A DNA stretch of 62,942 nucleotides, counting the filler, from Rhabdomonas costata (Eukaryota), in the NCBI GenBank assembly GCA_019059605.1. It is 53 parts of 53 records of this genome, joined end to end, with 100 filler letters (N's around TTAATTAATTAA, not from the genome) between each part and the next. Parts side by side here need not be neighbours in the genome. Positions count along the whole stretch, not along the records: positions 41,648 to 42,736 come from JAHMHO010029154.1; positions 42,837 to 43,926 come from JAHMHO010029155.1; positions 44,027 to 45,115 come from JAHMHO010029156.1; positions 45,216 to 46,300 come from JAHMHO010029157.1; 49 more parts are not named here. One strand, given 5' to 3'. The notes below the pieces were generated by a model, which ran no database searches, was not told the DNA's origin, and saw only the letters and a list, made by a program, of their open reading frames with translations. A program made the position numbers and the translations under genes. The stretch's first letter is position 1. Every line of letters begins with the position of its first letter. This document shows positions 9,425 to 48,882 of this stretch, one piece after another.

Positions 9425-11294
9425 NNNNNNNNNNNNNNNNNNNNNNNNNNNNNNNNNNNNNNNNNNNNTTAATTAATTAANNNNNNNNNNNNNNNNNNNN
9501 NNNNNNNNNNNNNNNNNNNNNNNNGTTTTTTGGGAACAGGGGTTGGGGTGGGAGGGACCGAGTCCGAGGGCGATAAGAAAAAAGAAACTGCATGTTCTTC
9601 CTTCGTTCCGCCTGTGCCTCCAGATCCTCTATACTCTCGCAAGAGATGTTCCGGCCACTGCAGGATAGAGAGTCAGAGAGACAGAGAGATTATCAAAGGA
9701 ACCCACAGCGCTCGCTGTTGATCAATGCCGGCGCGTTGCAGTGGCCAGAGGTGGTATGGGCCCAGGGGTTCTCTTTTGCTTCTTTCGCTGTGTTATGTGC
9801 TTTTAGTTCATGTTTTTTTCCGGCTAAGAAAGTTTTTTCCTGTTCTTATACAAACATATGTGGAAGTGCACGTGTGTGTGTACTTCTCTGCAAATCCTTC
9901 AGCCGTTTTACGGCGGTGTAGGTCACAGCGTATGGTGTCGTTGGCGGGTGTTCTGTGGTGATCTCCAGCCACGATCACGGTTGTTGTCATGCACCTACCG
10001 AGTGTGGTTCTCAAAATTTGTTTTGTTCAATCCTCTTAAAACGGGGACATGGGCAATAGTTACTCAACTTATGACAATGATTGCCGTGCGCCTTAGGGGT
10101 CGGGAAGTGGGCACCAACGGATGTAACAGTGGCTGCCGGTAGAGGAAGCTGCTGCAATCGTCACAACACGAATGATACTTCCATAACCTCCATCCCTGCA
10201 TTCCAGAAGCGGAATCCTCGTGACTTACCAGTTTCCCTTCGTCGGAAGCAGTTGCCAACGGGGCATTGCACTAGTTTTATCAGTTATGTTCAAGGGACCC
10301 GAAAACTTGGAACTCGCTGCTATAGCTGGGAGTCTCCAAAAGAATTCAACGCCAGGATCCATTTCCTGCAATTGCTAAAGAAAGTCGTCTGTGGTTGTTT
10401 CCCCACCGCTTGGCCACCGCTCCCCGTCCCCGAAAAAGTCCGGTCTCATTTTTTCGCCGTTTTGCATTTATTCGAAGATGCTGTGTCAGTTTACCCCCTT
10501 TTCTTTTTTTTTTCACACTGTGCTGCGAGCGTCACTTGACGTTCGCTTTTCCCCCACTCCCAACCCTCCTCTTCCTTCCTTTTCCCAGCAGCCCGCAAAT
10601 ACCCAAACCACCCCNNNNNNNNNNNNNNNNNNNNNNNNNNNNNNNNNNNNNNNNNNNNTTAATTAATTAANNNNNNNNNNNNNNNNNNNNNNNNNNNNNN
10701 NNNNNNNNNNNNNNGTGGGTTGGGGAAGACGCAGGGGCAAGGGACTGGGAATCACCTCAGGCAAGGGAAGGAGGAGAGGCCAAAACGCTGGGAAACACAC
10801 ACACACACACACACACAAAGGCACAGTGAAGAAAATAAAGAGAAAAAGGGAAACCAATGCGCACAAGGGAAAGAAAGGCACTGGGAAAGAGGTCACCGGT
10901 CACCAAAGCGACGCCTACCCGCCACTCCGAAGAACGGAAGACAGTTTAAAAAGACGTTGTTGCATTCACACCGTGAAGCCAGAAACAAATCTTCCCACTT
11001 TGTAAATGTTATTTTTCATTCTTCCCGAAACGAAACGAAGTGAGGAACGAACGTGGTAAGTGCATGGTTTTAGTATGCGTGGCCAACGGAAAAATGTCCG
11101 TTTGGTGATTCTTCGCCATCCTTGCAACCCCACACGTGTGTTTGTCTGTGGAAAAATTGAGTTGCGCTTTATTATTTGCGCGAGGTAGTCGAAGTTTCAA
11201 GAGTCGACGTTTTGACGCAGGTTAGCATTGTGGGCTGTCCTATGGGACACCCTATGCGAGATCAATAACCTGTCTCCGGATGGGGTGGGAGGGG

Positions 11295-31778: not shown

Positions 31779-33115
31779 CGGTCAGCGCACGTCTAACCGA
31801 CCTCTACAAAGTCGCCCTCCAAAAACGGGAGAAGAAACGCAAATCTTCAAGTTTTCTGCACAAGGGTACAAAGTAATTGGTGAATTGAGAGACAGGTTCC
31901 CTTTGTCTCAGACGACTTTCACACCACCCAAGAAAAAGCAGAAAAACAGATCTCCAAGGGCCTCTCCCTTCCGTACGACTGCTAAAGGTTCGAAATCAAC
32001 AAGAACCCGGGAATGACAGGAAAAACCCCACNNNNNNNNNNNNNNNNNNNNNNNNNNNNNNNNNNNNNNNNNNNNTTAATTAATTAANNNNNNNNNNNNN
32101 NNNNNNNNNNNNNNNNNNNNNNNNNNNNNNNGGGGTTGGTGGCCTCCAAAATTGAAGAGGGGCTTTATCCCATTTGGAGACGCTGTGGTGGATTTATCCA
32201 GATACATAGTTGAGGATTGGATCGAGCATCTGTCCGAATCACTCGATTTTGGTTTTCTAAATTCAGAGAGGAGCAGCCATCACGGTAGCCTATTACTAAG
32301 CCCGTTTGTGACAAAGGCAACAAGAAAAAGTGGTGCTGGAAAGAATTACAACTGCACCACTTTTGCATACTGTAATTCAAACATTGTGGATAGGATGTCG
32401 ACGCAGCCATCTTCCGTTGAATTTTCAAAAAATGAAAAGACGACTTCGCTCCAAAGGTGACCCTTACGTTTGATGCAAATGAAGTAAAAATGGACTAATG
32501 TTGTAGACGTTGAGGCGTATGATTTTTATGAATATTCGCTTCAGGGTGTTTACAAATACAAACCATTTGACATTTTATAATATACTATAGCAAGTTAAAC
32601 TCATAAGACGTGCTTTTTAGGCTGACTATCGTGAAAATGTTTAAGCAATATCGTATGAACACACACAATCCTAGCGGCATTTTATAGAGTCCACAGGACT
32701 TCAGTTGTAAACTCGTGACATAATATGCACATATTCCACTGCTTTTGCTAACGCAAGCTAAAATTAACACGGAATTATAAGTACATTCGCAACGCGTATT
32801 GCCCATAATGTTCTGCTAATCATCCGCTGCTTAGCTGAAAGTGTGTACCTCACAATGTCTTATTATGGAAGAATACATAATATACAAATACATCATAGTT
32901 TGCAAGGTTTTTGTGCATGTCTTGTTGACGGAAATTGTGCGGCATTATGACTCAATATTTCTTTGCACAAGTCTTGAGAGTTAAGGTGATGTGATTTATT
33001 TTTAAACAAATGCCTCGCAATTACAGTACACATTATCCTCTGTCAATAGTAGTAGTAAAGTACACTGAACTGCTGTTTTTTAGTGGATTAAACAATTAAA
33101 TAATTTTTTGGTTCT

Positions 33116-33194
33116 AGTTCGGCTATGGCACACCACCCATAAGTTCGGCTGAGACACTCCATCCACATCAGTTCGGTTGAGGCACACCCCTCCC
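33116..33194 (+). repeat. Three imperfect tandem copies of a 25-28 nt unit (AGTTCGGYT..G.CAC..C)
   Basis: agttcggctatggcacaccacccata / agttcggctgagacactccatccacatc / agttcggttgaggcacacccctccc. Confidence 0.7.
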
Positions 33195-35989
33195 AAGAGG
33201 GAAAGTAATGAACCACACCCCNNNNNNNNNNNNNNNNNNNNNNNNNNNNNNNNNNNNNNNNNNNNTTAATTAATTAANNNNNNNNNNNNNNNNNNNNNNN
33301 NNNNNNNNNNNNNNNNNNNNNGGGGGGTTTGACTAGCTCCAAATTCAGCTTCCGCGATTTATTGAGTTGCCTTCAACAACACACTTTATTTTTTGGGCAT
33401 TAGTCTCTTCTTGTCCTCACTCCCTTGTTCGAGAGTTCAGGTTTGACTGTAGTTCACGCAAATTTCCTTGTCCCATGACCTTGGCAATTCATCTGCCGTG
33501 TATTTGTATGCAAAGCACTGTACGAAAATGCGGTGGTGCACCGCTTTTTTCTGACGATGTCTTGAAGAATGGGAGGGTTTCTGTCCATTGGTTCCTCCGA
33601 CGCTTTCTCTCCAATTCTGGTGGGCAGGAACGCAGTGCAGGGTTTTGAGTACGCAGAGAAGATGCTGCAGAGGTCGCCGGGCCGTAGTGCACGCGCGATA
33701 CGGAGGGTGTGTAAGAGAGAAAGGTGCTCACCGAGGCAAAAGGAGGGATTTTGTTGGGAGCATTCGGATTTGGGCTCAGGCATAGCCCCGCAAATGTGAT
33801 TTGATCTCAGTGGCGTGTGGCGAAGAAGTAGCAGGGGTGGGGAGCAAAAAGTTTATCGTTGTTTATGGGAGTTATCAGAAGAAGACCCAGGAGAGGGTGC
33901 CAGATGCGAGGAGGTGACCGACCCCATATAATAGGAACTGCTTGTTGATGGCACGCTCGCTAGTGTGCAGCCTACAGTGAGCCCACGTCGGAATGCCTGC
34001 AATGATCCGGAAAAAAAAGAGCCCTTCCAAGCTTGCGTTAAGACAAATAGGGCTAAAACACCCCAGAATGGCACTCAAATGGCCTCTCAGGTGCCTGCAG
34101 TCATAAGCATATCGGCCCACTCCGGTGCCAGCATGAAGTGCTCCTGGGCTCTACGTTTAGGTATTCTGAGCAGGCCTGGCCGGAAGCATAGGTTCAGTTT
34201 GAAGGCCTGAAAAGGGCGAAAAATTGCTCCTGGAGAGGTAGATGGGCCCGCCAGGAAGGACCCCAGAACAGCGATAAGAGAAAGAACTGTACCTGGACTA
34301 TATCTGCTCTGCAACTGCAATTGTATACGCAGTCTCATCCATTATGGCAAAGAACAAATTTCAGCATACACCTTAAAGCTGAAGGGGAGGAAGTTCCGTG
34401 TCATGCGANNNNNNNNNNNNNNNNNNNNNNNNNNNNNNNNNNNNNNNNNNNNTTAATTAATTAANNNNNNNNNNNNNNNNNNNNNNNNNNNNNNNNNNNN
34501 NNNNNNNNGTGGTTGGGTTTGCAAGTTCATGTCCGTTTAATGTTGGTGAGTGGGGGGAGAGGGGAGGAAGGGTCTCACCTGGAGAGTCCGACGACAGTCC
34601 ACGGGCCGCGCGCTCGTCACGGGAAGCGCGCCGCCTTGGGGTGCTCCGCGCTGGAGAGGGCGGCACCTGCGGGGAGGGCACACACACACACACACATTCA
34701 AAAGAGACAAATGGGGTGAAGGGGGCACCATCCACCACAGGAGTTTTACGCAGGTAGAAGCGCACCGCTACAGAGGATAACTGACAGCTGACAGTGTTCC
34801 AAGGGGGAAATCATTTTTGTGGAATCATACACCTACGTGGCAGTGCGGGAGAAGTCGGATGGATGTCCAGCGCTACCTCTGGTCTGGCAACAGAAGAACT
34901 CCCATGAGGCTTTCCAAAGCGCACCCGGGGGGGAGGGGAACAAAGTTGAGCTGCCATTCAAAATGTGTGCAAAATTTCTTGAAACACATACCCCACACAA
35001 AAATACCCACACCACACAAATCACACAAAAACCTTGCCGAGAGGTTCCGGCCTGCGAGGGGAAGGTTTCCACAGCGTCCCGCGGGTGCGGCCGGGCACAG
35101 CGCGGCGAGGGGTGGAGCCATCCTCTGAGCGGCCCGAGGGTGCGTCCCTTGAATCCACTGTGTCCAACCGAGCACCAAAAATGGATGTGAGCAGAGCTGT
35201 ATACTGCGCGCAGATTGAAGAGAACATTGCCAACACAGAACGTGAAGGCCTGGAACCTCGAACACCAATAGTTGGGGAAGAGGACCCCAAGACTTCAAAA
35301 GTGGACCATAGGGGGCCAAGGTACTGTGGTGCTGGCATCTCCACAAACACACACACACTTACACACACGAGTCCGATGTCCGACGTGTGGAAAAGGAGGC
35401 GCAAGGCAGAGCGAGGTTGCAAGTGCGGTATGATTGATTTCTTGCACAGTCCGTGTGCGTGCACCGGGACAACCCCGAGGCTTGTAATTAACCGCAGCAT
35501 AAGCAGCGTGCGTTAAACTCCGCACCAATTTCACCCCGGTGTGAAACACAAACTCATTCACTCACTCACTCACACACAAACCCAAACACACCCACCACNN
35601 NNNNNNNNNNNNNNNNNNNNNNNNNNNNNNNNNNNNNNNNNNTTAATTAATTAANNNNNNNNNNNNNNNNNNNNNNNNNNNNNNNNNNNNNNNNNNNNGG
35701 GTTTTGTGATGTCCGGCTCTCGTTGCTCCCGTCGTTTCTTTTTGAATGTGTCTTGGACAGGATGAATTCGGTGTCGGCGCGCTGTTACACTCTCCTCATG
35801 TACACAGAGAATGTCTTTGACAAGGCCTGTCCTGCTTGTTTGGGCTTCACCATTGGAAGGGAAGGAAAGCGAAAAACCAGATCATCGTGGTGGTGGTGGG
35901 GTGTTCTTTAGAGGATTGCAGTTACATGTCCTCTGCGGTGGGGTGCAAGAAGTGTGAATGTGGGAGTGTGGATGTGGGGTGGGGTGCAG

Positions 35990-36135
35990 GACGAACTGGA
36001 GCGGGCCCAGGGCGAGGTCAGCAGCCCGCTGCAGCGGCACGCCTTGCGTTCGGAGATTGACCGGGCCCGGCGCGAACTGGAGGCCGTGCAGACTCGCCTC
36101 CGCGAGGAGCAGACCAGAAAGAACCTGGGCTCAAG
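35990..36135 (+). CDS. Coiled-coil exon, unknown protein
   Basis: gtgcag|DELERAQGEVSSPLQRHALRSEIDRARRELEAVQTRLREEQTRK; GC3-rich. Confidence 0.5.
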
Positions 36136-36552
36136 ATTTAGCGGGCTCACTGACAGGCACGCCCTTTCTCCCTTTCTCCCCCGCCACCCTATCCTCTCTC
36201 TCTCTTTGCTGTGCTGTGTACATAAGTTACCGTTGCTTAATTGCTGTTTGCCCACATCGGACAGGGCACGATTGGCAACCGTTTTTTCAGGCAAGCCCAC
36301 TTTTTGCAGAACTATGATTTCATTCGGAGACTCAACCCGTGAGCCTCGTGACCGTCACGCCCAATCACCGCACTACCATACCCAATGAATATGTCCCATA
36401 CCATAACTACACCAATGCGCACCTAACACTAACTATAGAGAACACAAACACGTGAGAAGAAGAATACGCGTGTGAGACGAAGCATCCGGATTGAACATCA
36501 CCCCTACAGTTCGTTTTCAGAGGTGCCCGACGGAGCATCGGAAATTTGGTCA

Positions 36553-36771
36553 GGTCTCTGCGTTATCGATGAGGGCGATGATTCTAGGAGGTTTTGTTTC
36601 CCACAGCACCTTTGACCCGTCTGCGGGGCTTTTCTGCTCCGAGCTCACTGCGGCTGCGCTGCAGCGGGTGGGTTTGCTGCCGCCCTTCCCCCCGGTGACC
36701 TCGTACTCGCCGAACTCCTTCAGCTCTGAAACCACCCTGCCCCTCCTCCGCAACGCCTTCCTGGGACCTGA
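36553..36771 (+). CDS. Permuted papain-like (NlpC/P60, YaeF/YiiX-type) enzyme, catalytic Cys region
   Basis: AGLFCSELTAAALQRVGLLPP..SYSPNSFSS..LPLLRNAFLGPE; FCSEL motif. 5' border uncertain. Confidence 0.75.
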
Positions 36772-38200
36772 GGTCAACCCCACCACCCNNNNNNNNNNNN
36801 NNNNNNNNNNNNNNNNNNNNNNNNNNNNNNNNTTAATTAATTAANNNNNNNNNNNNNNNNNNNNNNNNNNNNNNNNNNNNNNNNNNNNGTGGTGGGTGTG
36901 TTTGGGGGTGGTGTTGGCTGGTCGGGTGGGCTGGTTCCCGCAGAATGGGCAGAACCTCCACTGAGGGGAGGTCGCGCAGCCCCTCCTGCATCTCGGTTGG
37001 TGGGAGGGTGTGACGGTTGAGCCAGAGGTGGAAGGCTCGGGGTGCCCCGGCTTGTCGAGCCTTGTGGTTGGGCCTGGGTCCTCGCTGGTGAGGACGGGGA
37101 CAGGCGCAGTGGAGGAGTCCTCCGCGACCCCCGGGTGGGTTGCTCGCTCTTCACGCTCTCGTTATCGCTGCTCTCGCTCTCGTTGTCACCCTCAGAGTCT
37201 TTTCCTCCAAGAGGTTGCCACTTTTTCTTACATTTCGGAAGTGCAGGTGGACTTGTCGTGTTTCTGCGGGTTTTTGGGGAAAATATGTGTGGACTTTTGG
37301 GTTGGGGATTGTGGTTGTGCCGCAATTCCCGCTGAAAGCGCCAAAGAGGACGGAGGTTAGTGGACAATTAGGGGTAGAGTAGCATTGGAATTTCTACTGG
37401 CCCGTAGGTGGCCCATTTCACCCCAAGTCCCCCTCCGAGTTTGGCGAAGCGAGGCGGTGAGGCAGAAGACCCCCCCCCGGCGGCGGCGGCGGAGTCCGCA
37501 AGAGAAGTGCGAAGCGCAGGTGCGCGGGCAAGTGTCTAGTCCTAGTCCTAGTCCTTACCGCGGGGAGTTGACAGCGATCACAAAGCAAAAGTGCCGTTCG
37601 GGGGACCAAGGAGGGGAGCGGATCGAGTGGGCTGAGCGGGGAAGTCGCAAGAGCCACGTAATTGGTCCGGGCCCGCCGTGGCGTCTCACAGTTCTCCGGC
37701 GTCCGCCCACTTTTCCAGGGAGTAGTACCGGTCGGCTTTGCCGCTTGCGCACCGCAGGCACCGCAGGTACTGCTCAAGAGCTTCCTCCAGAGACGTCGTT
37801 AATGTCGCCGTCCAGCTTGAATTTCCGGCCACCGCAAAATGCGGGGTCCACGGTGCACACGTGGCCCCCATGGTTCAAATGCTCTTTAAACGGGCCTCAA
37901 AAGAGCCGAGAGGTTCACACACAAGTTGACTAGAAACTGCTTTGGAAGATGGCGCACCAAAGGGGAACCCACCCCACANNNNNNNNNNNNNNNNNNNNNN
38001 NNNNNNNNNNNNNNNNNNNNNNTTAATTAATTAANNNNNNNNNNNNNNNNNNNNNNNNNNNNNNNNNNNNNNNNNNNNGTGTGTGGGGCAACGGTAGCAC
38101 CATACAGTTCACTGTCCAGTGATTACAGAGGTTTAATTGTGATTTATCAGCAGAATGCCGTCGTCTTACACAATGGGGCAGAGGGGTCGCACGGAGAGAC

Positions 38201-42337: not shown

Positions 42338-44042
42338 GTGGGGCACCGCTTGCATTGCTTTTGTGATGTTCAACCCTATGCGTCTTTGTTGGCATGGTCA
42401 CCTCCATCTCCTTACTAATAATAGCTCAGAAATCCCGAGCTTCAAAATATGTCCCTTAATTGTGGGGTGAAAACTCTTGCTTTGGCGTTCAATTCGCCCC
42501 GGGCTACCATTTGAATTTTGAAGATATTTCTAGATCATGTGAAGCACTTGGATGCAGTCTGTTTAAAGGAAGTGGAAGGACCAAAAATCGACCAGTACTT
42601 GTCACAACGCGTCACGCGCTGGTGAACGCTGGAGAAGATTTTGAAGCTTGCAAGGTTGGGTGCCCCCAAAACTCTTTGTACTGTCTCTCTGTTTCTCTGT
42701 GCTGCACATCGGGTGCGGTTTTGCAACCCCCACCACNNNNNNNNNNNNNNNNNNNNNNNNNNNNNNNNNNNNNNNNNNNNTTAATTAATTAANNNNNNNN
42801 NNNNNNNNNNNNNNNNNNNNNNNNNNNNNNNNNNNNGTGGGGTGTTCCAAAAGTAGCTTTTTGCAATTTGCTCAGGCTTTTGTTGTATGTTTTGCGTTCT
42901 TAAAATGCAGCTCAAGCGGTTTTTAAATGTCTGTGCCGTGGATCTTTGTATCGAAAGTCGCTCGGAGTTTAGCTATATTTGTCTTTAATTCGCACTGTTT
43001 TTTAATCGCTGTTATCACCGTGCTTCTTCGAACAATTCAAGAATATGGAAAACGCAGGTGTCAGATAGCGCAATAACAACCACTGAAGTGCTCGTGTTTG
43101 TTTTAAGGAGCGTATACAAGCACACCACATGCATCGTGCACTAGAAATCACACCACACACGCTGAATTGAATCTCACAAGCGGCATTTTGCCAAGAGTTT
43201 TGTTTTTGGAGTTGCAACTTGCGCTCCATTGCACTCTCGTAGACCCGCTATCACAGAATGAGTAGAAATCACCGCAACTTTAATGTCACCGACGAAAAGA
43301 GGAGTGTCTATGTACCACGCCACGTGTCGCAAAAACGCGGCTGAGTATATTCAGAGTCATGTTCTTGGTGTATACCAATATAATCCACTTCAGCGCACAA
43401 CGCGTGTCACAGGTATTTATTAAGCTGTAATACAACACAGGTCAGCATTCCTCTGAATCTAAGAAGACATGCAAGTGGCCATGCATGCTGCGCCGTCATA
43501 TTTTGAGCGTCAGTGATGCTGCACCTTCCAAATACACAACGCAGGAGGAGTGAATGCATGAGGTGTATATCTTGTAGTTTTTTGCATGAAGTAAGTATAT
43601 ACACCACAAATTGTGTGAAAGGTTTTAACATCTCACACAAGTATACGCAAAAACTGTCTGGAAATTATTGTCGTGTCTTGAGGTCGCTGATATTAGGTTG
43701 CAACGTTAGGGAGACGCTACGCGTACCGTTGGTACTGGGACAAATTTACCATCAAATAAGATTCAATCTGAGTGGTGTAATACAAACCAGCTTCAAATAG
43801 TTTGTGGCACAAATGGTACAAATGTGAGTGGCAAGCACCTTGGCAAGCACAAATTGTTACACTTGAATGTGTGAATTTATGGCGACAAAAGCATCACAGG
43901 AAATCGACCGTAATAGCAGCGCTGGTNNNNNNNNNNNNNNNNNNNNNNNNNNNNNNNNNNNNNNNNNNNNTTAATTAATTAANNNNNNNNNNNNNNNNNN
44001 NNNNNNNNNNNNNNNNNNNNNNNNNNGGGTTGTTGTGAGTGA

Positions 44043-44423
44043 TATATCGTTGTACATTTATATCACTCACAACATAATAAAAAAAATTTTATGTTACATC
44101 GTTTGTTAGGTAAATATTTCTTAGAAAATGGTGAAAAATATTTTTATGATAAAAAATATGTAATTCATCACAAAGATGAAAACAAAAAAAACAATAATAT
44201 AAATAATTTAGAATGGACTACATATAAAGAAAATACTAAACATAGTGTTGCACGAAAAGTTGCAAAAATTGATGTTTTAACAAATCAAGTGTTAAAAATA
44301 TATGATAGTATAACTGAAGCATATATAGATTTAGGTAAAAATAGAACATCTGTAATTTCTAAAATATGTAATAATGAATATGGACGAAAAACATTGTTTG
44401 GTTTTAAATGGAAATATGTTTAA
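44043..44423 (+). CDS. HNH homing endonuclease with C-terminal NUMOD1, 5'-truncated, giant-virus-like
   Basis: Y..V.L..MLHRLLGKYF..VIHHKDENKKNNNINNLEWTTYKENTKH (HNH_3), then VLKIYDSITEA..ISKIC..FGFKWKY (NUMOD1); intronless and extremely AT-rich. Confidence 0.9.
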   Translation, partial: YIVVHLYHSQHNKKNFMLHRLLGKYFLENGEKYFYDKKYVIHHKDENKKNNNINNLEWTTYKENTKHSVARKVAKIDVLTNQVLKIYDSITEAYIDLGKNRTSVISKICNNEYGRKTLFGFKWKYV

Positions 44424-44468
44424 TAATAAATAGTTAACTATTTTGAAAATAGTTAATTATTTATTATT
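44422..44468. terminator. AT-rich palindromic hairpin between convergent genes; Mimiviridae-type polyadenylation signal
   Basis: AATAATAAATAGTTAACTATTTT-G-AAAATAGTTAATTATTTATTATT: 23-nt arms with a single G-T pair, overlapping both stop codons. Confidence 0.75.
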
Positions 44469-45111
44469 TATTATTCTCAATATATAGTTGTATATCTTTA
44501 TCAATATTGTCAATTAAATTTTGTAGATCTTCTCTCTGTATAAACAATTCCTCATCTCGATTTGCTTTATTTTTTGTTTTTAATTTAGTTTTATTGTACA
44601 CATCCTTGTCATACTTTATTTTTTTATTGCGAGTTATTACAATTGGTACATTTTCATATGATATATCATCAACATGAATATTAATAATCCAAGTGTCCAA
44701 CTTACGATTTTGTGTAATTTTGTATCTAATTTCAATAACTGATTTTAAAGCAAACATATTATCAATAAAATCATTTAATATACATATATTTTTGCTTGTT
44801 TCAAAAGTATGCCAACTATTAGGTGTTATAATTTTTTTATGATCATTATTAATTATATTATCTATATCATTTTTTGTTGAATTTGCTAATGATGATTTAT
44901 CTGTTTTTATTTTTATTCCAACTGTATTATCTAATTGTTTATTTAAATATTCTGACCAACCACCTGTTATTTTTGACCATTCTGTAACATAATAATGTTT
45001 GGGATCAGCAGGTAAATTAATAAGTATATGTAAAATATTATCGTCTATATTATCACCATTTAATGCTTTATCTAATATTGCATTATACATTTTTTTACCT
45101 GCTGACCCCAA
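44464..45111 (-). CDS. AT-rich viral-like ORF, C-terminal 215 aa (5'-truncated)
   Basis: Uninterrupted N/I/K-rich ORF; contains LPADPKHYYVTEWSKITGGWSEYL. Confidence 0.8.
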   Translation of the reverse strand: MGSAGKKMYNAILDKALNGDNIDDNILHILINLPADPKHYYVTEWSKITGGWSEYLNKQLDNTVGIKIKTDKSSLANSTKNDIDNIINNDHKKIITPNSWHTFETSKNICILNDFIDNMFALKSVIEIRYKITQNRKLDTWIINIHVDDISYENVPIVITRNKKIKYDKDVYNKTKLKTKNKANRDEELFIQREDLQNLIDNIDKDIQLYIENNK

Positions 45112-46400
45112 AACCNNNNNNNNNNNNNNNNNNNNNNNNNNNNNNNNNNNNNNNNNNNNTTAATTAATTAANNNNNNNNNNNNNNNNNNNNNNNNNNNNN
45201 NNNNNNNNNNNNNNNGTTTTTTTGTGTACATGCTCCCACCGTCAGCAGCTCAGCTTCTGTACTGGAAGCTGACCGAAGGGTCGTCGCGATGGGATCCTTC
45301 TCATCCGTCGACTTTTACCCCCCACACCCGCGCACACTTTTTTCATGCACCCTTGTGACGAATTTCTTGCAATGGTTTCTTCTGTGGTGATTTAACTTCT
45401 TGACTTCTGGCACACGGCATGGTGCATTTTGCAGTCGAATAGCCCAATTCAAAGCTGCAGCGCTGCGTTTGGGGCAATCATCGCCAGAGCTCGTTTTTGG
45501 CGGCTTTGTGCCTGCGGTGTCTTCCGGCATGGGGCCGCTTGTACCCTCCCCCCCTCCAAAAAAAAAAAGGAAGACAATACTCAAAACTACAAACATCCCG
45601 AAAACTCAGGCACCCGCAATACGCGCTATATCGTTGTTTCATCTTCCCCTCGTGGCCTGTACATAGAAGCAAAATACGAAGGAATCGAGAATGCACATGT
45701 TTCCTGCGGCTTTTCCAGGATATCTTGGCTCCATCCTAGGTATTTACGGCTGAAAAGAGTTACCTATCTTAGGTTGCGATGAACGTGTTCCCAGGGATTC
45801 TTCTTCCTCCTGCGTGCGTACACGCCCTAAAAGCAGCATAGCAAAATATCGCTGCATCAGTGTACCTCTGAACTCTGTGCTCGATTTGAAGCGACTCGTT
45901 CGCTATAATGACATAACTTTGCCAGTCTGTCACCCGTCACGCTTGCTCTTGAAGAGGGCTTTCCGAACACGCATTTCCACATTTGCGCACATCCGATTTG
46001 AGGTCAAAACCCTTCTTTCCAAATATTTGATCAGTTTTACAATCGAAAATGTGAGCAGTGCGATAAGTGACCAGTCTCCTTGAGTTTTGTTTTTTGTGCT
46101 CGTTCCTTTTGCGGCACCGGAGACGTTTCCACCTTTTCCGAATCCATCCACCACCCTCACGTACACATGAACATATTACGAGCTGTTTCAGAAGCCCTGG
46201 GCCGGGCACTCCTGGCAGAGGAGGTAGTCATGCTTGGGTGCCTGTCCGCTGCTGGGGTGGCAAAGCTGAATACAGACCTCTGCCGAGGTGTGGCACGCCT
46301 NNNNNNNNNNNNNNNNNNNNNNNNNNNNNNNNNNNNNNNNNNNNTTAATTAATTAANNNNNNNNNNNNNNNNNNNNNNNNNNNNNNNNNNNNNNNNNNNN

Positions 46401-47342
46401 TCGATAGCTCTGAATTTAGCGTGCACTGTTAGTACCGGTGGCCAATTCCCCGATAAAACCAATTGTGAGGAAGGAATTATTATAATTTATTCAGATGAAG
46501 ATGACGTAAACAAAACTTTATTACCCAGAATTCATGCAAATGGAGGAAACATAAATAACTTTAAATTTGCTAGAATCGTTACAGAAGACAATAAACCAAG
46601 GCCATTTGACTTAAAAAAAGACCTACCTGACTTGATAGACAAGGTAACCCAAATAACGGCCACCTCTAAAATACCTGTAAAAATGATAATAATAGATCCA
46701 ATCTTGTCAGCTATTACAGGGGATGTAAATAGCGCAAAAGACGTAAAAACCTCTTTGCTACCTTTAGTTGAGGTGGCAAGAAAACTAAATTTGTCTGTTT
46801 TGGGAATTTGCCATTATAACAAAAATCTATCTAGTTGCGAACCTCAAACAAGAATACTCGGTTCAGTAGCTTTTGCAGGTACAGCAAGAATGTGTTTAGG
46901 GGTTATTTCTAAAAATGAAATTTCTGAATTTGGCGAAAAAAGAATAAATCTTTTCGCAAGAATAAAAACAAATAAATCTATTTGCGACAATGGGTTTAAA
47001 TATGAAATTAGTGAGCATCCCATAGTTCACGATTTAACAAGCGAAAGAAAGATTTGTATAAAAGGAATTACCAAAGTTGTTTGGGGAAAACAAATAAAAG
47101 GTAGAATAGAAGATCTATTTGGATGCGAAGAAAACGAAAAGACAAGTACCTTAAAAGATGCAAAGATTTTTTTAGAAGAATGGTTAATGAATGGAGCGAA
47201 ACTTAGCTCTAATATAATAACAGAAGCTACAGAACAAGGATATACGCCCAAGACGCTACGAAATGCCAGAAAACAACTTGGTATCAAAATAGAGGAAAAA
47301 CCAGATGGCACATCTTGGTGGTCACTACCAAATTTACACTAA
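46401..47342 (+). CDS. AAA_25/RepA-like helicase of a prophage, satellite or plasmid, 5'-truncated
   Basis: Frame open from the contig start: SIALNLACTVSTGGQFPD..IIIYSDEDD..LLPRI..; Walker B MIIIDPI; LGICHYNK; RILGSVAFAGTAR; C-terminal HTH-like TLRNARKQLG..WWSLP; intronless, AT-rich. Confidence 0.88.
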   Translation, partial: SIALNLACTVSTGGQFPDKTNCEEGIIIIYSDEDDVNKTLLPRIHANGGNINNFKFARIVTEDNKPRPFDLKKDLPDLIDKVTQITATSKIPVKMIIIDPILSAITGDVNSAKDVKTSLLPLVEVARKLNLSVLGICHYNKNLSSCEPQTRILGSVAFAGTARMCLGVISKNEISEFGEKRINLFARIKTNKSICDNGFKYEISEHPIVHDLTSERKICIKGITKVVWGKQIKGRIEDLFGCEENEKTSTLKDAKIFLEEWLMNGAKLSSNIITEATEQGYTPKTLRNARKQLGIKIEEKPDGTSWWSLPNLH

Positions 47343-47356
47343 CAACCATATACAGT

Positions 47357-47480
47357 CACCAAGTTAGTTTACCCAAGGTGCTCTTTGTCAACGAAAGGGC
47401 ACAAGAAGGGCGTTAGGCTTTTTTCCACCTTTTTCTATTTTCATTCCCACAAACAACACCAAGTTGATTAACCCAAGTGC
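47357..47480 (+). repeat. Two imperfect direct repeats 100 bp apart plus a small hairpin downstream of the helicase
   Basis: CACCAAGTTAGTTTACCCAAGGTGC (47357) and CACCAAGTTGATTAACCCAAGTGC (47457); hairpin GTGCTCTTT-N7-AAAGGGCAC at 47378-47402. Confidence 0.65.
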
Positions 47481-48882
47481 CCAAAAAACNNNNNNNNNNN
47501 NNNNNNNNNNNNNNNNNNNNNNNNNNNNNNNNNTTAATTAATTAANNNNNNNNNNNNNNNNNNNNNNNNNNNNNNNNNNNNNNNNNNNNGTGGGTGTTTT
47601 ATCTATTTGAAAATTTACGCGCACAAAATTCAGGAAGATTGTCCGTGGGAGAACATGATTTCAAAAAAGAAAATTTCTCATATCGTTTGAAAGTCATGGT
47701 TGTGAAAATTGGTCCTTGAATGGATGTGCGTTTACATTTGGAACGAAATTACCACGACGGGGCTTGCTTTTAAAGTTGCGCTTAAAATGAAAGAGGTAGT
47801 TAAGACCACGTAAAGAAAAATGGTATTGGAAAGGAGTTCTGATAAAAAACTAAATATACCTCAGATTGATAGAGCACATCATCGCAAACACCACAACACC
47901 ATAAGCAACAACACAAGCCAAAACACAATCACAAGCATTTTCAGGGTTGCTGCGAAAAGGCAGTTGCCAACTCACAAAAGAAAGATCACAAAAAGCACAA
48001 CGTCAACAGGTCGCGACAACCTGTGAGACAGATATAGAAAGGGTTTCTGTTGTGCAGGCAACCGTACAAAAGAAGCAAAAATCACAAGGGGAAACGGCTC
48101 ACTGTATTCACCGCGCATCAGCCGCGGGAAGAATGTTCTTGCTATTCACTACTTTATTCAGAGCAACATTAAACACACAAACGACGAGCCAACAACACCA
48201 CGCCACCAACAACAACCATGCCAACAACAACACTGCAAACACTACCACCATGAATGCTACGAACAGAAACCAACACCAACAACGCTAACGCAAACCAAAG
48301 CACGAGCAAAAAATAGACCAACACAAGGGATGGACATCAGGTGTTGGCACTCGGTCTTAGTTTCCGGTCTCCCAGGTTTTTTGGAAGTTCTCAAATGCCG
48401 CTCGGCTAAAACATTGGTTTGGCCACCATCAGCCTTTGGTGAGGGAGTTTCTTCACAAGCCCCAGCCTCAGATTTCTGGTGCCTCCTTAAAATGACGCCC
48501 CTGGATGGCGGGTGGATGAGGGGTTCCCTTATAGTCTGGAATACGGCTCGTGGCCCGACCAAGTGGGCCATGCGGGCACTTTGAACACCGCAGTTCCCCC
48601 AGTTTAGCACCGCCGAAAAATTTCAGGCCGGACGCCCACATGGAAGACGTCCTCTTTAGACAGCCCCAAGGCCAAGGAANNNNNNNNNNNNNNNNNNNNN
48701 NNNNNNNNNNNNNNNNNNNNNNNTTAATTAATTAANNNNNNNNNNNNNNNNNNNNNNNNNNNNNNNNNNNNNNNNNNNNGTTTTGGGTTTCGTGGCTTTT
48801 TGTGCTTGTGAGTCAATAGAGAAAGCTCTTGAAGCAGGGAGGCCTATTAAGTTAAACCTGCTATCCCTATTCGCTGTGACAG

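What the first reader, a model, noticed from the sequence alone, without database searches (positions are those of the whole stretch)
44027..45115. Mimiviridae-like giant-virus contig in a protist amplified genome, with a hairpin-rule palindrome
Seen: the contig is far more AT-rich than its neighbours (roughly 20% GC by eye), has no introns, and holds two convergent ORFs 40 nt apart; a 23-bp near-perfect palindrome (44422-44468) covers both stop codons. Established: Mimiviridae transcripts end inside AT-rich palindromes (the hairpin rule), and free-standing HNH-NUMOD1 endonucleases are common in Megamimivirinae and Klosneuvirinae. Inference: this is an infecting, ingested or recently endogenised giant virus associated with this protist. 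Both ORFs look intact.
Basis: partly seen in the sequence, partly recalled or inferred. Interest (0 to 1): 0.78.

Follow-up and report, generated by a model that had tools for sequence, protein, structure and literature searches.

The report
Giant-virus DNA fragment in protist assembly
This 1.1-kb, very AT-rich piece is one amplified fragment of a giant-virus genome that holds the tail ends of two genes facing each other across a long palindrome; such fragments are already known from amplified protist cells, and a second "hairpin" at its edge comes from the amplification.

Summary
The sequence observation mostly holds. The contig is 22.1% GC, against 35-61% for the other 52 contigs. It carries two convergent frames 40 nt apart, and a 23-bp-arm palindrome (44422-44468) covers both stop codons. 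No random sequence reached that stem length (0 of 1000).

The claim that both ORFs are intact is wrong.
- ORF2 is the last ~208 codons of an ~850-aa SF2 helicase. Its relatives lie on 16-23% GC giant-virus contigs. All 3 of those records that could be searched carry the NCLDV major capsid protein and VLTF3, and one is a single 123-kb contig.
- ORF1's frame is open and homologous 16 codons upstream of its ATG. It matches residues 297-422 of ~425-aa double-HNH endonucleases on 19-22% GC metagenome contigs.

Both contig ends are amplification artefacts: G/T-only primer runs plus fold-back copies of internal coding sequence. The hairpin at 44031-44074 is one of these fold-backs. The internal palindrome is the only non-terminal long hairpin in the window and looks genuine.

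Giant-virus origin is well supported. Assignment to Mimiviridae, hairpin-rule function, and whether the virus was infecting, ingested or integrated remain untested. This is a new member of a known kind, of modest interest.

The parts
44027..44037 (.). G/T-only run of 11 nt, derived from the degenerate amplification primer and not from the genome
   Evidence: 42 of 53 contigs start with a G/T-only run of 8 nt or more (mode 10-11), against 1.3% of 1060 internal control positions. This contig has 11.
44031..44046 (.). Inverted copy of coding sequence 44059-44074, forming the left arm of a terminal fold-back. It is an amplification chimera, not a viral terminator hairpin.
   Evidence: 16-nt perfect inverted repeat with a 12-nt loop. 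The right arm lies inside the homologous HNH reading frame. 8 of 53 contigs have a terminal hairpin with a stem of 14 bp or more.
44043..44423 (+). 3' end (126 codons plus stop) of a tandem-HNH (I-HmuI-like) endonuclease gene. The rest of the gene lies off the amplicon.
   Evidence: Gapless 126-aa alignment to residues 297-422 of L013's 426-aa protein, 63% identity, E 1e-54. HNH_3 E 7e-10. Aligns to I-HmuI 1U3E residues 55-117, E 3e-5. Relatives have two HNH_3 modules.
44422..44468 (.). AT-only palindrome with 23-bp arms, one mismatch and a 1-nt centre. It fills the whole spacer between the two stop codons and overlaps both. It is built from two tandem copies of a 16-nt near-palindromic unit (44428-44443 and 44447-44462).
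   Evidence: It is the only internal hairpin with a stem of 14 bp or more in all 53 contigs.
44464..45093 (-). 3' end (~209 codons plus stop at 44464-44466) of an ~850-aa SF2 helicase gene of a giant-virus family. Only the uncharacterised C-terminal domain is present.
   Evidence: phmmer: 40 hits, best 8e-30, aligned to residues ~637-860 of 843-887-aa proteins. The N-terminal parts of those proteins are ResIII + Helicase_C. 37-38% identity to L005, L006 and L008.
45094..45115 (.). Terminal artefact: a 12-nt exact inverted copy (45094-45105) of internal coding sequence 45005-45016, then an 11-nt C/A-only primer-derived run (45105-45115)
   Evidence: (I3). The internal copy encodes the family's invariant P..P motif.

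Best explanation
The contig is one whole-genome-amplification product (~1.05 kb of real sequence) copied from the genome of an uncultured, extremely AT-rich giant virus (phylum Nucleocytoviricota). The virus was present with, in or on the sampled protist cell.

The fragment holds the 3' ends of two convergent genes. One encodes a tandem-HNH, I-HmuI-like endonuclease, a selfish mobile gene type. The other encodes a virus-specific SF2 helicase whose motor resembles the translocase of Type ISP restriction enzymes and whose C-terminal domain has no recognised fold.

The 40-nt spacer between the genes is entirely a 23-bp-arm AT palindrome. By analogy with Mimivirus, Megavirus and Bodo saltans virus, its RNA hairpin is most likely the shared 3'-end formation signal for both transcripts: cleavage by a viral RNase III-like enzyme, then polyadenylation.

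Shown: composition, homologies, truncation of both genes, the artefactual ends, and the non-randomness and position of the palindrome. Inferred: the function of the palindrome, adjacency of the two genes in the native genome, and any active infection.
For: - Composition: 22.1% GC against 35-61% for the other contigs.
- ORF2 relatives: 40 hits in 1.84 billion representatives, best 8e-30, all to C-termini of long proteins. 7 of the 8 scanned carry ResIII and all 8 carry Helicase_C.
- Four IMG/VR loci hold the family, at 16.4-22.6% GC.
- MCP and VLTF3 are present in 3 of the 3 records that could be searched, including the same single 123-kb contig as the helicase. The fourth record was not held.
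- Neighbours of the helicase include MutS, XRN and UvrD helicases.
- The best BFVD match of the ORF2 model is a helicase of a metagenomic marseillevirus bin (E 3.3e-4).
- No phage or plasmid match for ORF2, and no relative in the GTDB pattern scan.
- ORF1's closest relatives (57-67% identity) lie on 19-22% GC contigs; L014 also carries ankyrin and LRR_5/FNIP genes.
- Palindrome statistics. It is the only internal long hairpin among the 53 contigs.
- No bacterial-type terminator was found.
- RNase III is encoded in 2 of 3 related giant-virus records.
- Hairpin-dependent 3'-end processing is described for Mimivirus and Megavirus (passages of PMC4402537), and palindromes after ORFs for BsV (passages of PMC5871332).
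Against: - No hallmark gene lies on the contig itself. The link to giant viruses rests on 37-38% identity of one protein domain.
- ORF1's family is typical of tailed phages: 255 phage records match at up to 39% identity, and the nearest Atlas clusters are mostly Uroviricota. ORF1 has no match in the three giant-virus records.
- In related loci, palindromes with stems of 12 bp or more occur in 5 of 11 convergent, 4 of 9 divergent and 11 of 21 tandem intergenic regions, so they show no preference for 3' ends.
- Only 10 of 42 ORFs have a palindrome with a stem of 13 bp or more near the stop.
- Only 2 of 4 helicase orthologues are followed by a palindrome with arms of 15 bp or more.
- AAAATTGA is not enriched in relatives. 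On this contig it occurs only inside the HNH frame.
- The assembly is rich in amplification chimeras, so the adjacency of the two genes is not proven.
Confidence: 0.85

Rival explanations
1. Chimeric amplicon. Both halves are viral, but amplification joined them by template switching at similar palindromic sequences. The convergent layout and the full 23-bp palindrome would then not exist in the native genome.
For: Both ends of this contig are fold-back chimeras. 10 of 53 contigs have an exact terminal fold-back of 12 nt or more. In 4 of 4 close relatives the HNH gene is followed by a co-directional TnpB-like ORF, not by a palindrome or a helicase.
Against: All 8 other long hairpins in the window are terminal, and this is the only internal one. 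Its arms carry a mismatch, which a polymerase fold-back would not produce. Its flanks are two different genes, so a switch would need a near-identical 23-mer at two separate loci. In L005, L006 and L008 the helicase orthologue is followed by a convergent ORF.
Confidence: 0.1
2. Endogenised giant-virus DNA. The fragment is part of a viral insertion in the protist's nuclear genome rather than a virus particle or a replicating virus.
For: Nothing specific. Both genes are seen only as fragments, and the contig sits in an assembly dominated by ~50% GC, ORF-poor, eukaryote-like contigs.
Against: There is no host-like sequence at either end. The composition stays viral throughout. Both frames are uninterrupted across their homologous spans (126 and ~209 codons). 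The truncations are explained by the amplicon ends.
Confidence: 0.1
3. AT-rich bacteriophage or bacterial symbiont DNA, with the palindrome acting as a bidirectional intrinsic terminator.
For: HNH_3/NUMOD endonucleases of this type are abundant in phages. Convergent genes sharing one hairpin are common in phages (general knowledge).
Against: ORF2 has no match in phages or plasmids and none in the GTDB pattern scan. Its relatives are linked to NCLDV MCP and VLTF3. The stem has no G-C-rich core, and no intrinsic-terminator-like site was called. The closest HNH relatives sit on contigs at about 20% GC, and one of these (L014) also carries ankyrin and FNIP/LRR genes.
Confidence: 0.03
4. A virophage, a polinton-like virus, another small AT-rich element, or organellar DNA.
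For: Such elements are AT-rich. Virophages use their giant virus's transcription signals (recalled, not tested).
Against: The helicase family was found on 68-123-kb contigs and in giant-virus bins of 0.39-0.95 Mb. No tRNA or Rfam family lies on the contig.
Confidence: 0.02

Closest known systems
Hairpin rule of Mimivirus and Megavirus transcripts (Byrne et al. 2009, seen only as a citation; Priet et al. 2015, PMC4402537, passages read)
   Same: An AT-rich palindrome with no conserved sequence lies directly after the stop codon, here shared by two convergent genes. The stem is long (23 bp). An RNase III gene is present in 2 of 3 related giant-virus records.
   Different: No transcript data exist. 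The virus is not shown to be a mimivirid. In relatives, palindromes are not preferentially at 3' ends in my small sample. The second hairpin on the contig is an artefact.
I-HmuI, the HNH homing endonuclease of Bacillus phage SPO1 (PDB 1U3E)
   Same: The HNH_3 core aligns to residues 55-117 (E 3e-5), with His, Asn and Asn at the aligned metal-finger positions (the residue roles are recalled). A C-terminal helix-turn-helix-like NUMOD region follows.
   Different: In relatives the protein is a ~425-aa fusion of two such modules, and only the last module is on this contig. No intron is detected. Target and activity are unknown.
Helicase-like motor of the Type ISP restriction enzymes LlaGI and LlaBIII (PDB 5FFJ, 4XQK)
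   Same: The N-terminal ~480 residues of the full-length relatives match these motors at E 8e-38 and 8e-37.
   Different: In the 8 relatives scanned, Pfam found no nuclease, methylase or specificity domain. The ~370-aa C-terminal part, including the piece on this contig, has no recognised fold. The motor itself is not on this contig.
Bodo saltans virus and other AT-rich giant viruses of ~50% GC protists (PMC5871332, passages read)
   Same: A viral genome of about 25% GC in a host of about 50% GC. ORFs are followed by palindromes. HNH and GIY-YIG endonucleases form part of the mobilome.
   Different: No sequence relationship to BsV was tested. The linked relatives have a PBCV-1-like MCP and lack AAAATTGA enrichment.

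Membership tests
Nucleocytoviricota genome fragment | Hallmark genes (MCP, PolB, A32, VLTF3) on the same molecule | not testable with these tools
   The contig holds about 1.05 kb of real sequence. No whole assembly is held.
Nucleocytoviricota genome fragment | Its genes have their closest relatives on molecules that carry the hallmark genes | tested here: met
   ORF2 relatives on L005, L007 and L008 belong to records with MCP and VLTF3: 3 of the 3 records searched, with one more record not held. ORF1 had no match in those records.
Mimiviridae / Imitervirales | Placement of core genes within the order by phylogeny | not testable with these tools
   No core gene lies on the contig, and no named reference set was at hand. 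The relative's MCP is closest to the PBCV-1-type MCP in the PDB. The BFVD search used a low-confidence model (pLDDT 47) and gave mixed NCLDV families.
Mimiviridae / Imitervirales | AAAATTGA early-promoter motif upstream of genes | tested here: inconclusive
   No 5' region lies on the contig, and the single copy is inside the HNH frame. In 8 related loci, 9 of 57 ORFs have the motif upstream and 5 of 57 downstream, and totals do not exceed the Markov expectation.
Hairpin-rule 3'-end signal | Palindrome able to form a long hairpin directly downstream of the stop codon | tested here: met
Hairpin-rule 3'-end signal | Transcripts polyadenylated inside the hairpin | not testable with these tools
   No RNA reads were available.
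HNH_3 / I-HmuI-like homing endonuclease | Beta-beta-alpha metal finger with His...Asn...Asn | tested here: met
   Pfam HNH_3 E 7e-10. Alignment to 1U3E. Invariant H27, N39 and N48 among close relatives.
HNH_3 / I-HmuI-like homing endonuclease | DNA-binding modules (NUMOD4 N-terminal, NUMOD1 C-terminal) and a complete gene | tested here: inconclusive
   NUMOD1 scores 15.1 bits, below the 22.8 cut-off. The NUMOD4 part and the whole first module lie off the contig.
SF2 helicase (ResIII + Helicase_C) | Walker A/B and helicase motifs | not testable with these tools
   The motor domain is upstream of the contig end. It is present in 7 of 8 full-length relatives scanned; the eighth, a 560-aa fragment, has Helicase_C only.
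Type ISP restriction-modification enzyme | Nuclease, methyltransferase and target-recognition domains fused to the motor | tested here: not met
   Only helicase-type domains (ResIII, Helicase_C, DEAD, SNF2-type) were found in the 8 relatives. The resemblance is limited to the motor.

The most novel reading that the evidence does not exclude
The fragment comes from an uncultured lineage of very AT-rich (16-22% GC), ~1-Mb giant viruses that was replicating in this protist. Its convergent genes share one bidirectional hairpin 3'-end signal, which would extend the hairpin rule to a clade with PBCV-1-like capsid genes. The lineage also carries two undescribed gene types: a helicase with a Type ISP-like motor and a C-terminal domain of unknown fold, and a double-HNH endonuclease that in relatives travels with a TnpB/Fanzor-like gene as a mobile unit.
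Probability: 0.3. Interest if true: 0.45.

Novelty: new member of a known kind. Interest (0 to 1): 0.3.

Why it matters
The fragment flags a possible virus-host pair for an uncultured protist. It also shows that this assembly contains giant-virus DNA worth binning.

For the scan itself, the contigs of this assembly are single amplification products. Their first and last 10-70 nt are often primer sequence and fold-back copies, so hairpins, start codons and 'intact' ORFs near contig ends should not be trusted.

Biologically the fragment is too short to add much. The helicase C-terminal domain and the double-HNH gene are small, uncharacterised giant-virus families.

Tried and rejected
- A word-based homologue search for ORF2 found nothing: 146 candidates, none significant. 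The exhaustive phmmer search was needed.
- IMG/VR scans with ORF2 alone and with P0005 alone found nothing. The 13-row alignment A1 had no conserved stretch to search with. The 6-row alignment A2 worked.
- ORF2 C-terminal domain model: mean pLDDT 74, above 88 for residues 90-208. Foldseek found no PDB match at E 0.001 or better. The VIA-align wide search gave a best Z of 5.7 (MHC-like platforms), within the stated noise range. The fold stays unassigned.
- ESM Atlas for ORF2: best score 0.79, uninformative.
- The MCP model of relative G001 was poor (pLDDT 47). Its BFVD hits confirm only that it is an NCLDV MCP, not which family.
- A literature search for the two GVMAG names found 0 papers.
- Rfam at E 1 or better gave only a sub-threshold snoRNA hit. 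No tRNA and no intrinsic terminator were found.
- A DNA-level search against phages matched only ~86 nt of the HNH core.
- I first read the hairpin at 44031-44074 as a second viral terminator. I rejected this.
Binning the low-GC contigs, read depth and poly(A) mapping therefore could not be done. Supplementary files of papers were not consulted.
Full report
**What the window is.** The window is 53 contigs of about 1,090 bp each, separated by N/TTAATTAATTAA spacers. Neighbouring contigs are therefore not physically linked. The contig at 44027-45115 is 22.1% GC, while the other 52 range from 35.1 to 60.5%. The longest frames of ten other contigs gave only two Pfam matches (AAA_25 and GATase_6), and most contigs have no long frame. 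This fits a eukaryotic nuclear background. No whole assembly is held, so the low-GC contigs could not be binned.

**Checking the observation.** The two frames are at 44091-44423(+) and 44464-45111(-), with 40 nt between the stops. The palindrome has arms 44422-44444 and 44446-44468: 23 nt, 96% complementary. It folds at -19.4 kcal/mol on the + strand and -15.1 on the - strand. The z-scores are -5.7 and -6.1, and 0 of 200 shuffles fold as well. Of 1000 first-order Markov copies of the contig, none reached a 23-bp stem and 9 reached 16 bp or more. The palindrome is built from two tandem copies of a 16-nt near-palindromic unit (D2).

**ORF2 is the tail of a giant-virus helicase.**
- Pfam, PHROGs, phage tblastn, plasmid tblastn and the word-based protein search gave nothing usable.
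- The exhaustive phmmer search found 40 proteins at E 0.001 or better. The best was 8e-30 at 35% identity. The long hits match through their last ~205 residues, for example 637-839 of 844.
- Of 8 relatives scanned, 7 have ResIII and all 8 have Helicase_C in the N-terminal half.
- A profile of the family matches the motors of the Type ISP enzymes LlaGI and LlaBIII (8e-38 and 8e-37). No poxvirus D6, D11 or A18 chain appeared among the 52 rows.
- ORF2's first Met aligns to an internal position of the family, and its frame is open to the contig edge. It is therefore a 3' fragment.
- The last ~120 residues fold confidently but match no known fold convincingly. The one BFVD hit at E 0.001 or better is a helicase of a metagenomic marseillevirus bin.

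**Where that helicase family lives.**
- An IMG/VR scan found four loci, at 17.7%, 18.9%, 22.6% and 16.4% GC. ORF2 is 38%, 38%, 27% and 37% identical to them.
- The three records that could be searched are a single 123-kb contig and two giant-virus bins of 0.39 and 0.95 Mb. All three carry NCLDV MCP (3, 6 and 5 matches) and VLTF3. The fourth record was not held.
- Flanking genes include MutS, XRN, UvrD-type and further SF2 helicases, a GIY-YIG endonuclease and a methylase-specificity fusion.
- A pattern scan of one genome per GTDB species gave 600 pattern matches but no relative. This scan is limited to two peptide patterns.
- This evidence puts ORF2 in Nucleocytoviricota.

**Family-level assignment is open.**
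- The MCP on the 123-kb contig is closest in the PDB to the PBCV-1-type capsid protein (E 2.5e-99). That entries 3kk5, 6ncl and 8h2i are PBCV-1 is recalled; entry 1m4x is titled so.
- The BFVD search used a poor model (pLDDT 47) and gave Terrestrivirus, Medusavirus and others at 32% identity or less.
- AAAATTGA is not enriched in eight related loci. It lies upstream of 9 of 57 ORFs and downstream of 5 of 57.

**ORF1 is also a fragment.**
- It matches HNH_3 (7e-10). NUMOD1 is below its cut-off.
- It aligns to I-HmuI residues 55-117 with the His/Asn/Asn positions kept.
- Phage HNH genes are at most 39% identical (255 records), and the nearest Atlas clusters are mostly from tailed phages.
- Closer relatives exist. 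P0001 is 67% identical. Four metagenome contigs of 19-22% GC carry relatives at 57-65% identity.
- On three of these contigs the matching part is the C-terminal module of a 423-427-aa protein with two HNH_3 modules plus NUMOD4 and NUMOD1. The fourth copy is cut by its contig end.
- On the window contig the frame is open 16 codons upstream of the ATG, and those codons are homologous. The 126 residues from 44043 align without gaps to residues 297-422 of L013's protein (63% identity, E 1e-54). The ATG is an internal codon, and the gene is cut at about 44043.
- Neighbours on L014 include ankyrin and LRR_5/FNIP proteins. On all four contigs a conserved ORF follows the HNH gene, and the two copies scanned (L014, L016) carry a Cas12f1-like TNB (TnpB-like) domain.
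- ORF1 has no match in the three giant-virus records. This is what one expects of a mobile gene.

**The contig ends are artefacts.**
- 42 of 53 contigs begin with a G/T-only run of 8 nt or more, and 29 of 53 end with a C/A-only run of 8 nt or more. Only 1.3% of internal control positions do so. This contig has 11 nt at each end. This is the signature of priming with ~10-nt degenerate G/T oligonucleotides; which kit was used I cannot say.
- 10 of 53 contigs carry an exact terminal fold-back of 12 nt or more. With one mismatch allowed, 8 contigs have terminal hairpins with stems of 17-72 bp.
- On this contig the left arm 44031-44046 is an inverted copy of coding sequence 44059-44074. The in-frame TGA at 44040 lies in that copy.
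- At the other end, 45094-45105 is an exact inverted copy of 45005-45016, which encodes the family's invariant P..P motif. The primer run follows it.
- The hairpin at 44031-44074 scored z -6.7, but it is therefore not a viral signal. ORF2's apparent TTG start is not real either.

**Is the central palindrome real?** It is the only internal hairpin with a stem of 14 bp or more in the whole window; the other 8 are all terminal. It has a mismatch, and its flanks are two different genes, each collinear with its relatives. A template switch would need near-identical 23-mers at two loci. I put the chance of a chimeric junction at about 10%.

**Does it work as a hairpin-rule signal?**
- Its position fits what passages of PMC4402537 describe for Mimivirus and Megavirus: a palindromic polyadenylation signal cleaved by the RNase III-like R343. 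It also fits what PMC5871332 reports for BsV.
- RNase III genes occur in 2 of 3 related records.
- No bacterial-type terminator was called on the contig.
- Support from the relatives is weak. 2 of 4 helicase orthologues are followed by a palindrome with arms of 15 bp or more. 10 of 42 ORFs have a palindrome with a stem of 13 bp or more near the stop. Palindromes are equally frequent in convergent (5 of 11), divergent (4 of 9) and tandem (11 of 21) spacers.
- The function is an inference by analogy.

**Verdict.** This is a genuine giant-virus fragment, of a kind already known from amplified protist cells. It holds two truncated genes and one probably genuine intergenic palindrome. Whether the virus was infecting, ingested or integrated cannot be decided from 1 kb.

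Noticed in passing
all 53 contigs of the window, for example 1191-1204, 10715-10728 and 35775-36788: Most contigs start with a ~10-11-nt G/T-only run (42 of 53) and end with a C/A-only run (29 of 53). 8-10 of 53 carry terminal fold-back inverted repeats of up to 72 bp. The contigs are single amplification products with primer-derived and chimeric ends.
   Followed up: yes
window 46401-47489: A second low-GC contig (35.1%) has a 313-codon frame open at the contig start. It matches AAA_25 (7e-15) and phage primase/helicase families, with about 25% identity to Microbacterium phage primase/helicase genes. It may be another viral or mobile element, or a contaminant.
   Followed up: partly
L013:2091-3491, L014:2-1317, L015:3361-4760, L016:386-2509: On four AT-rich (19-22% GC) metagenome contigs, the HNH gene is followed by a conserved co-directional ORF. 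On three of the contigs the gene is seen complete, as a ~425-aa double-HNH endonuclease. The two following ORFs that were scanned carry a Cas12f1-like TNB (TnpB/Fanzor-like) domain. The pair may be a mobile unit.
   Followed up: partly
L005:8427-9263 and L005:17863-20760: On the 123-kb giant-virus contig, a GIY-YIG endonuclease ORF lies just upstream of the LlaGI-like helicase. About 5 kb downstream is a 966-aa fusion of N6 methylase, Type I specificity domains and Rho_N. These may be the parts of a split Type ISP-like system.
   Followed up: no
L006:7631-10320: The helicase orthologue on this contig is split into two ORFs (186 aa with ResIII, then 684 aa), although tblastn aligns residues 1-857 across both. 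This suggests a frameshift, a stop codon or an insertion.
   Followed up: no
L006:11560-14517: A 986-aa MutS with domains I, III and V lies next to the helicase on a 19% GC giant-virus contig.
   Followed up: no
window 32132-33221 and 42837-43926: Two further contigs have below-average GC (39.2% and 42.5%) and no long ORF. They were not examined.
   Followed up: no
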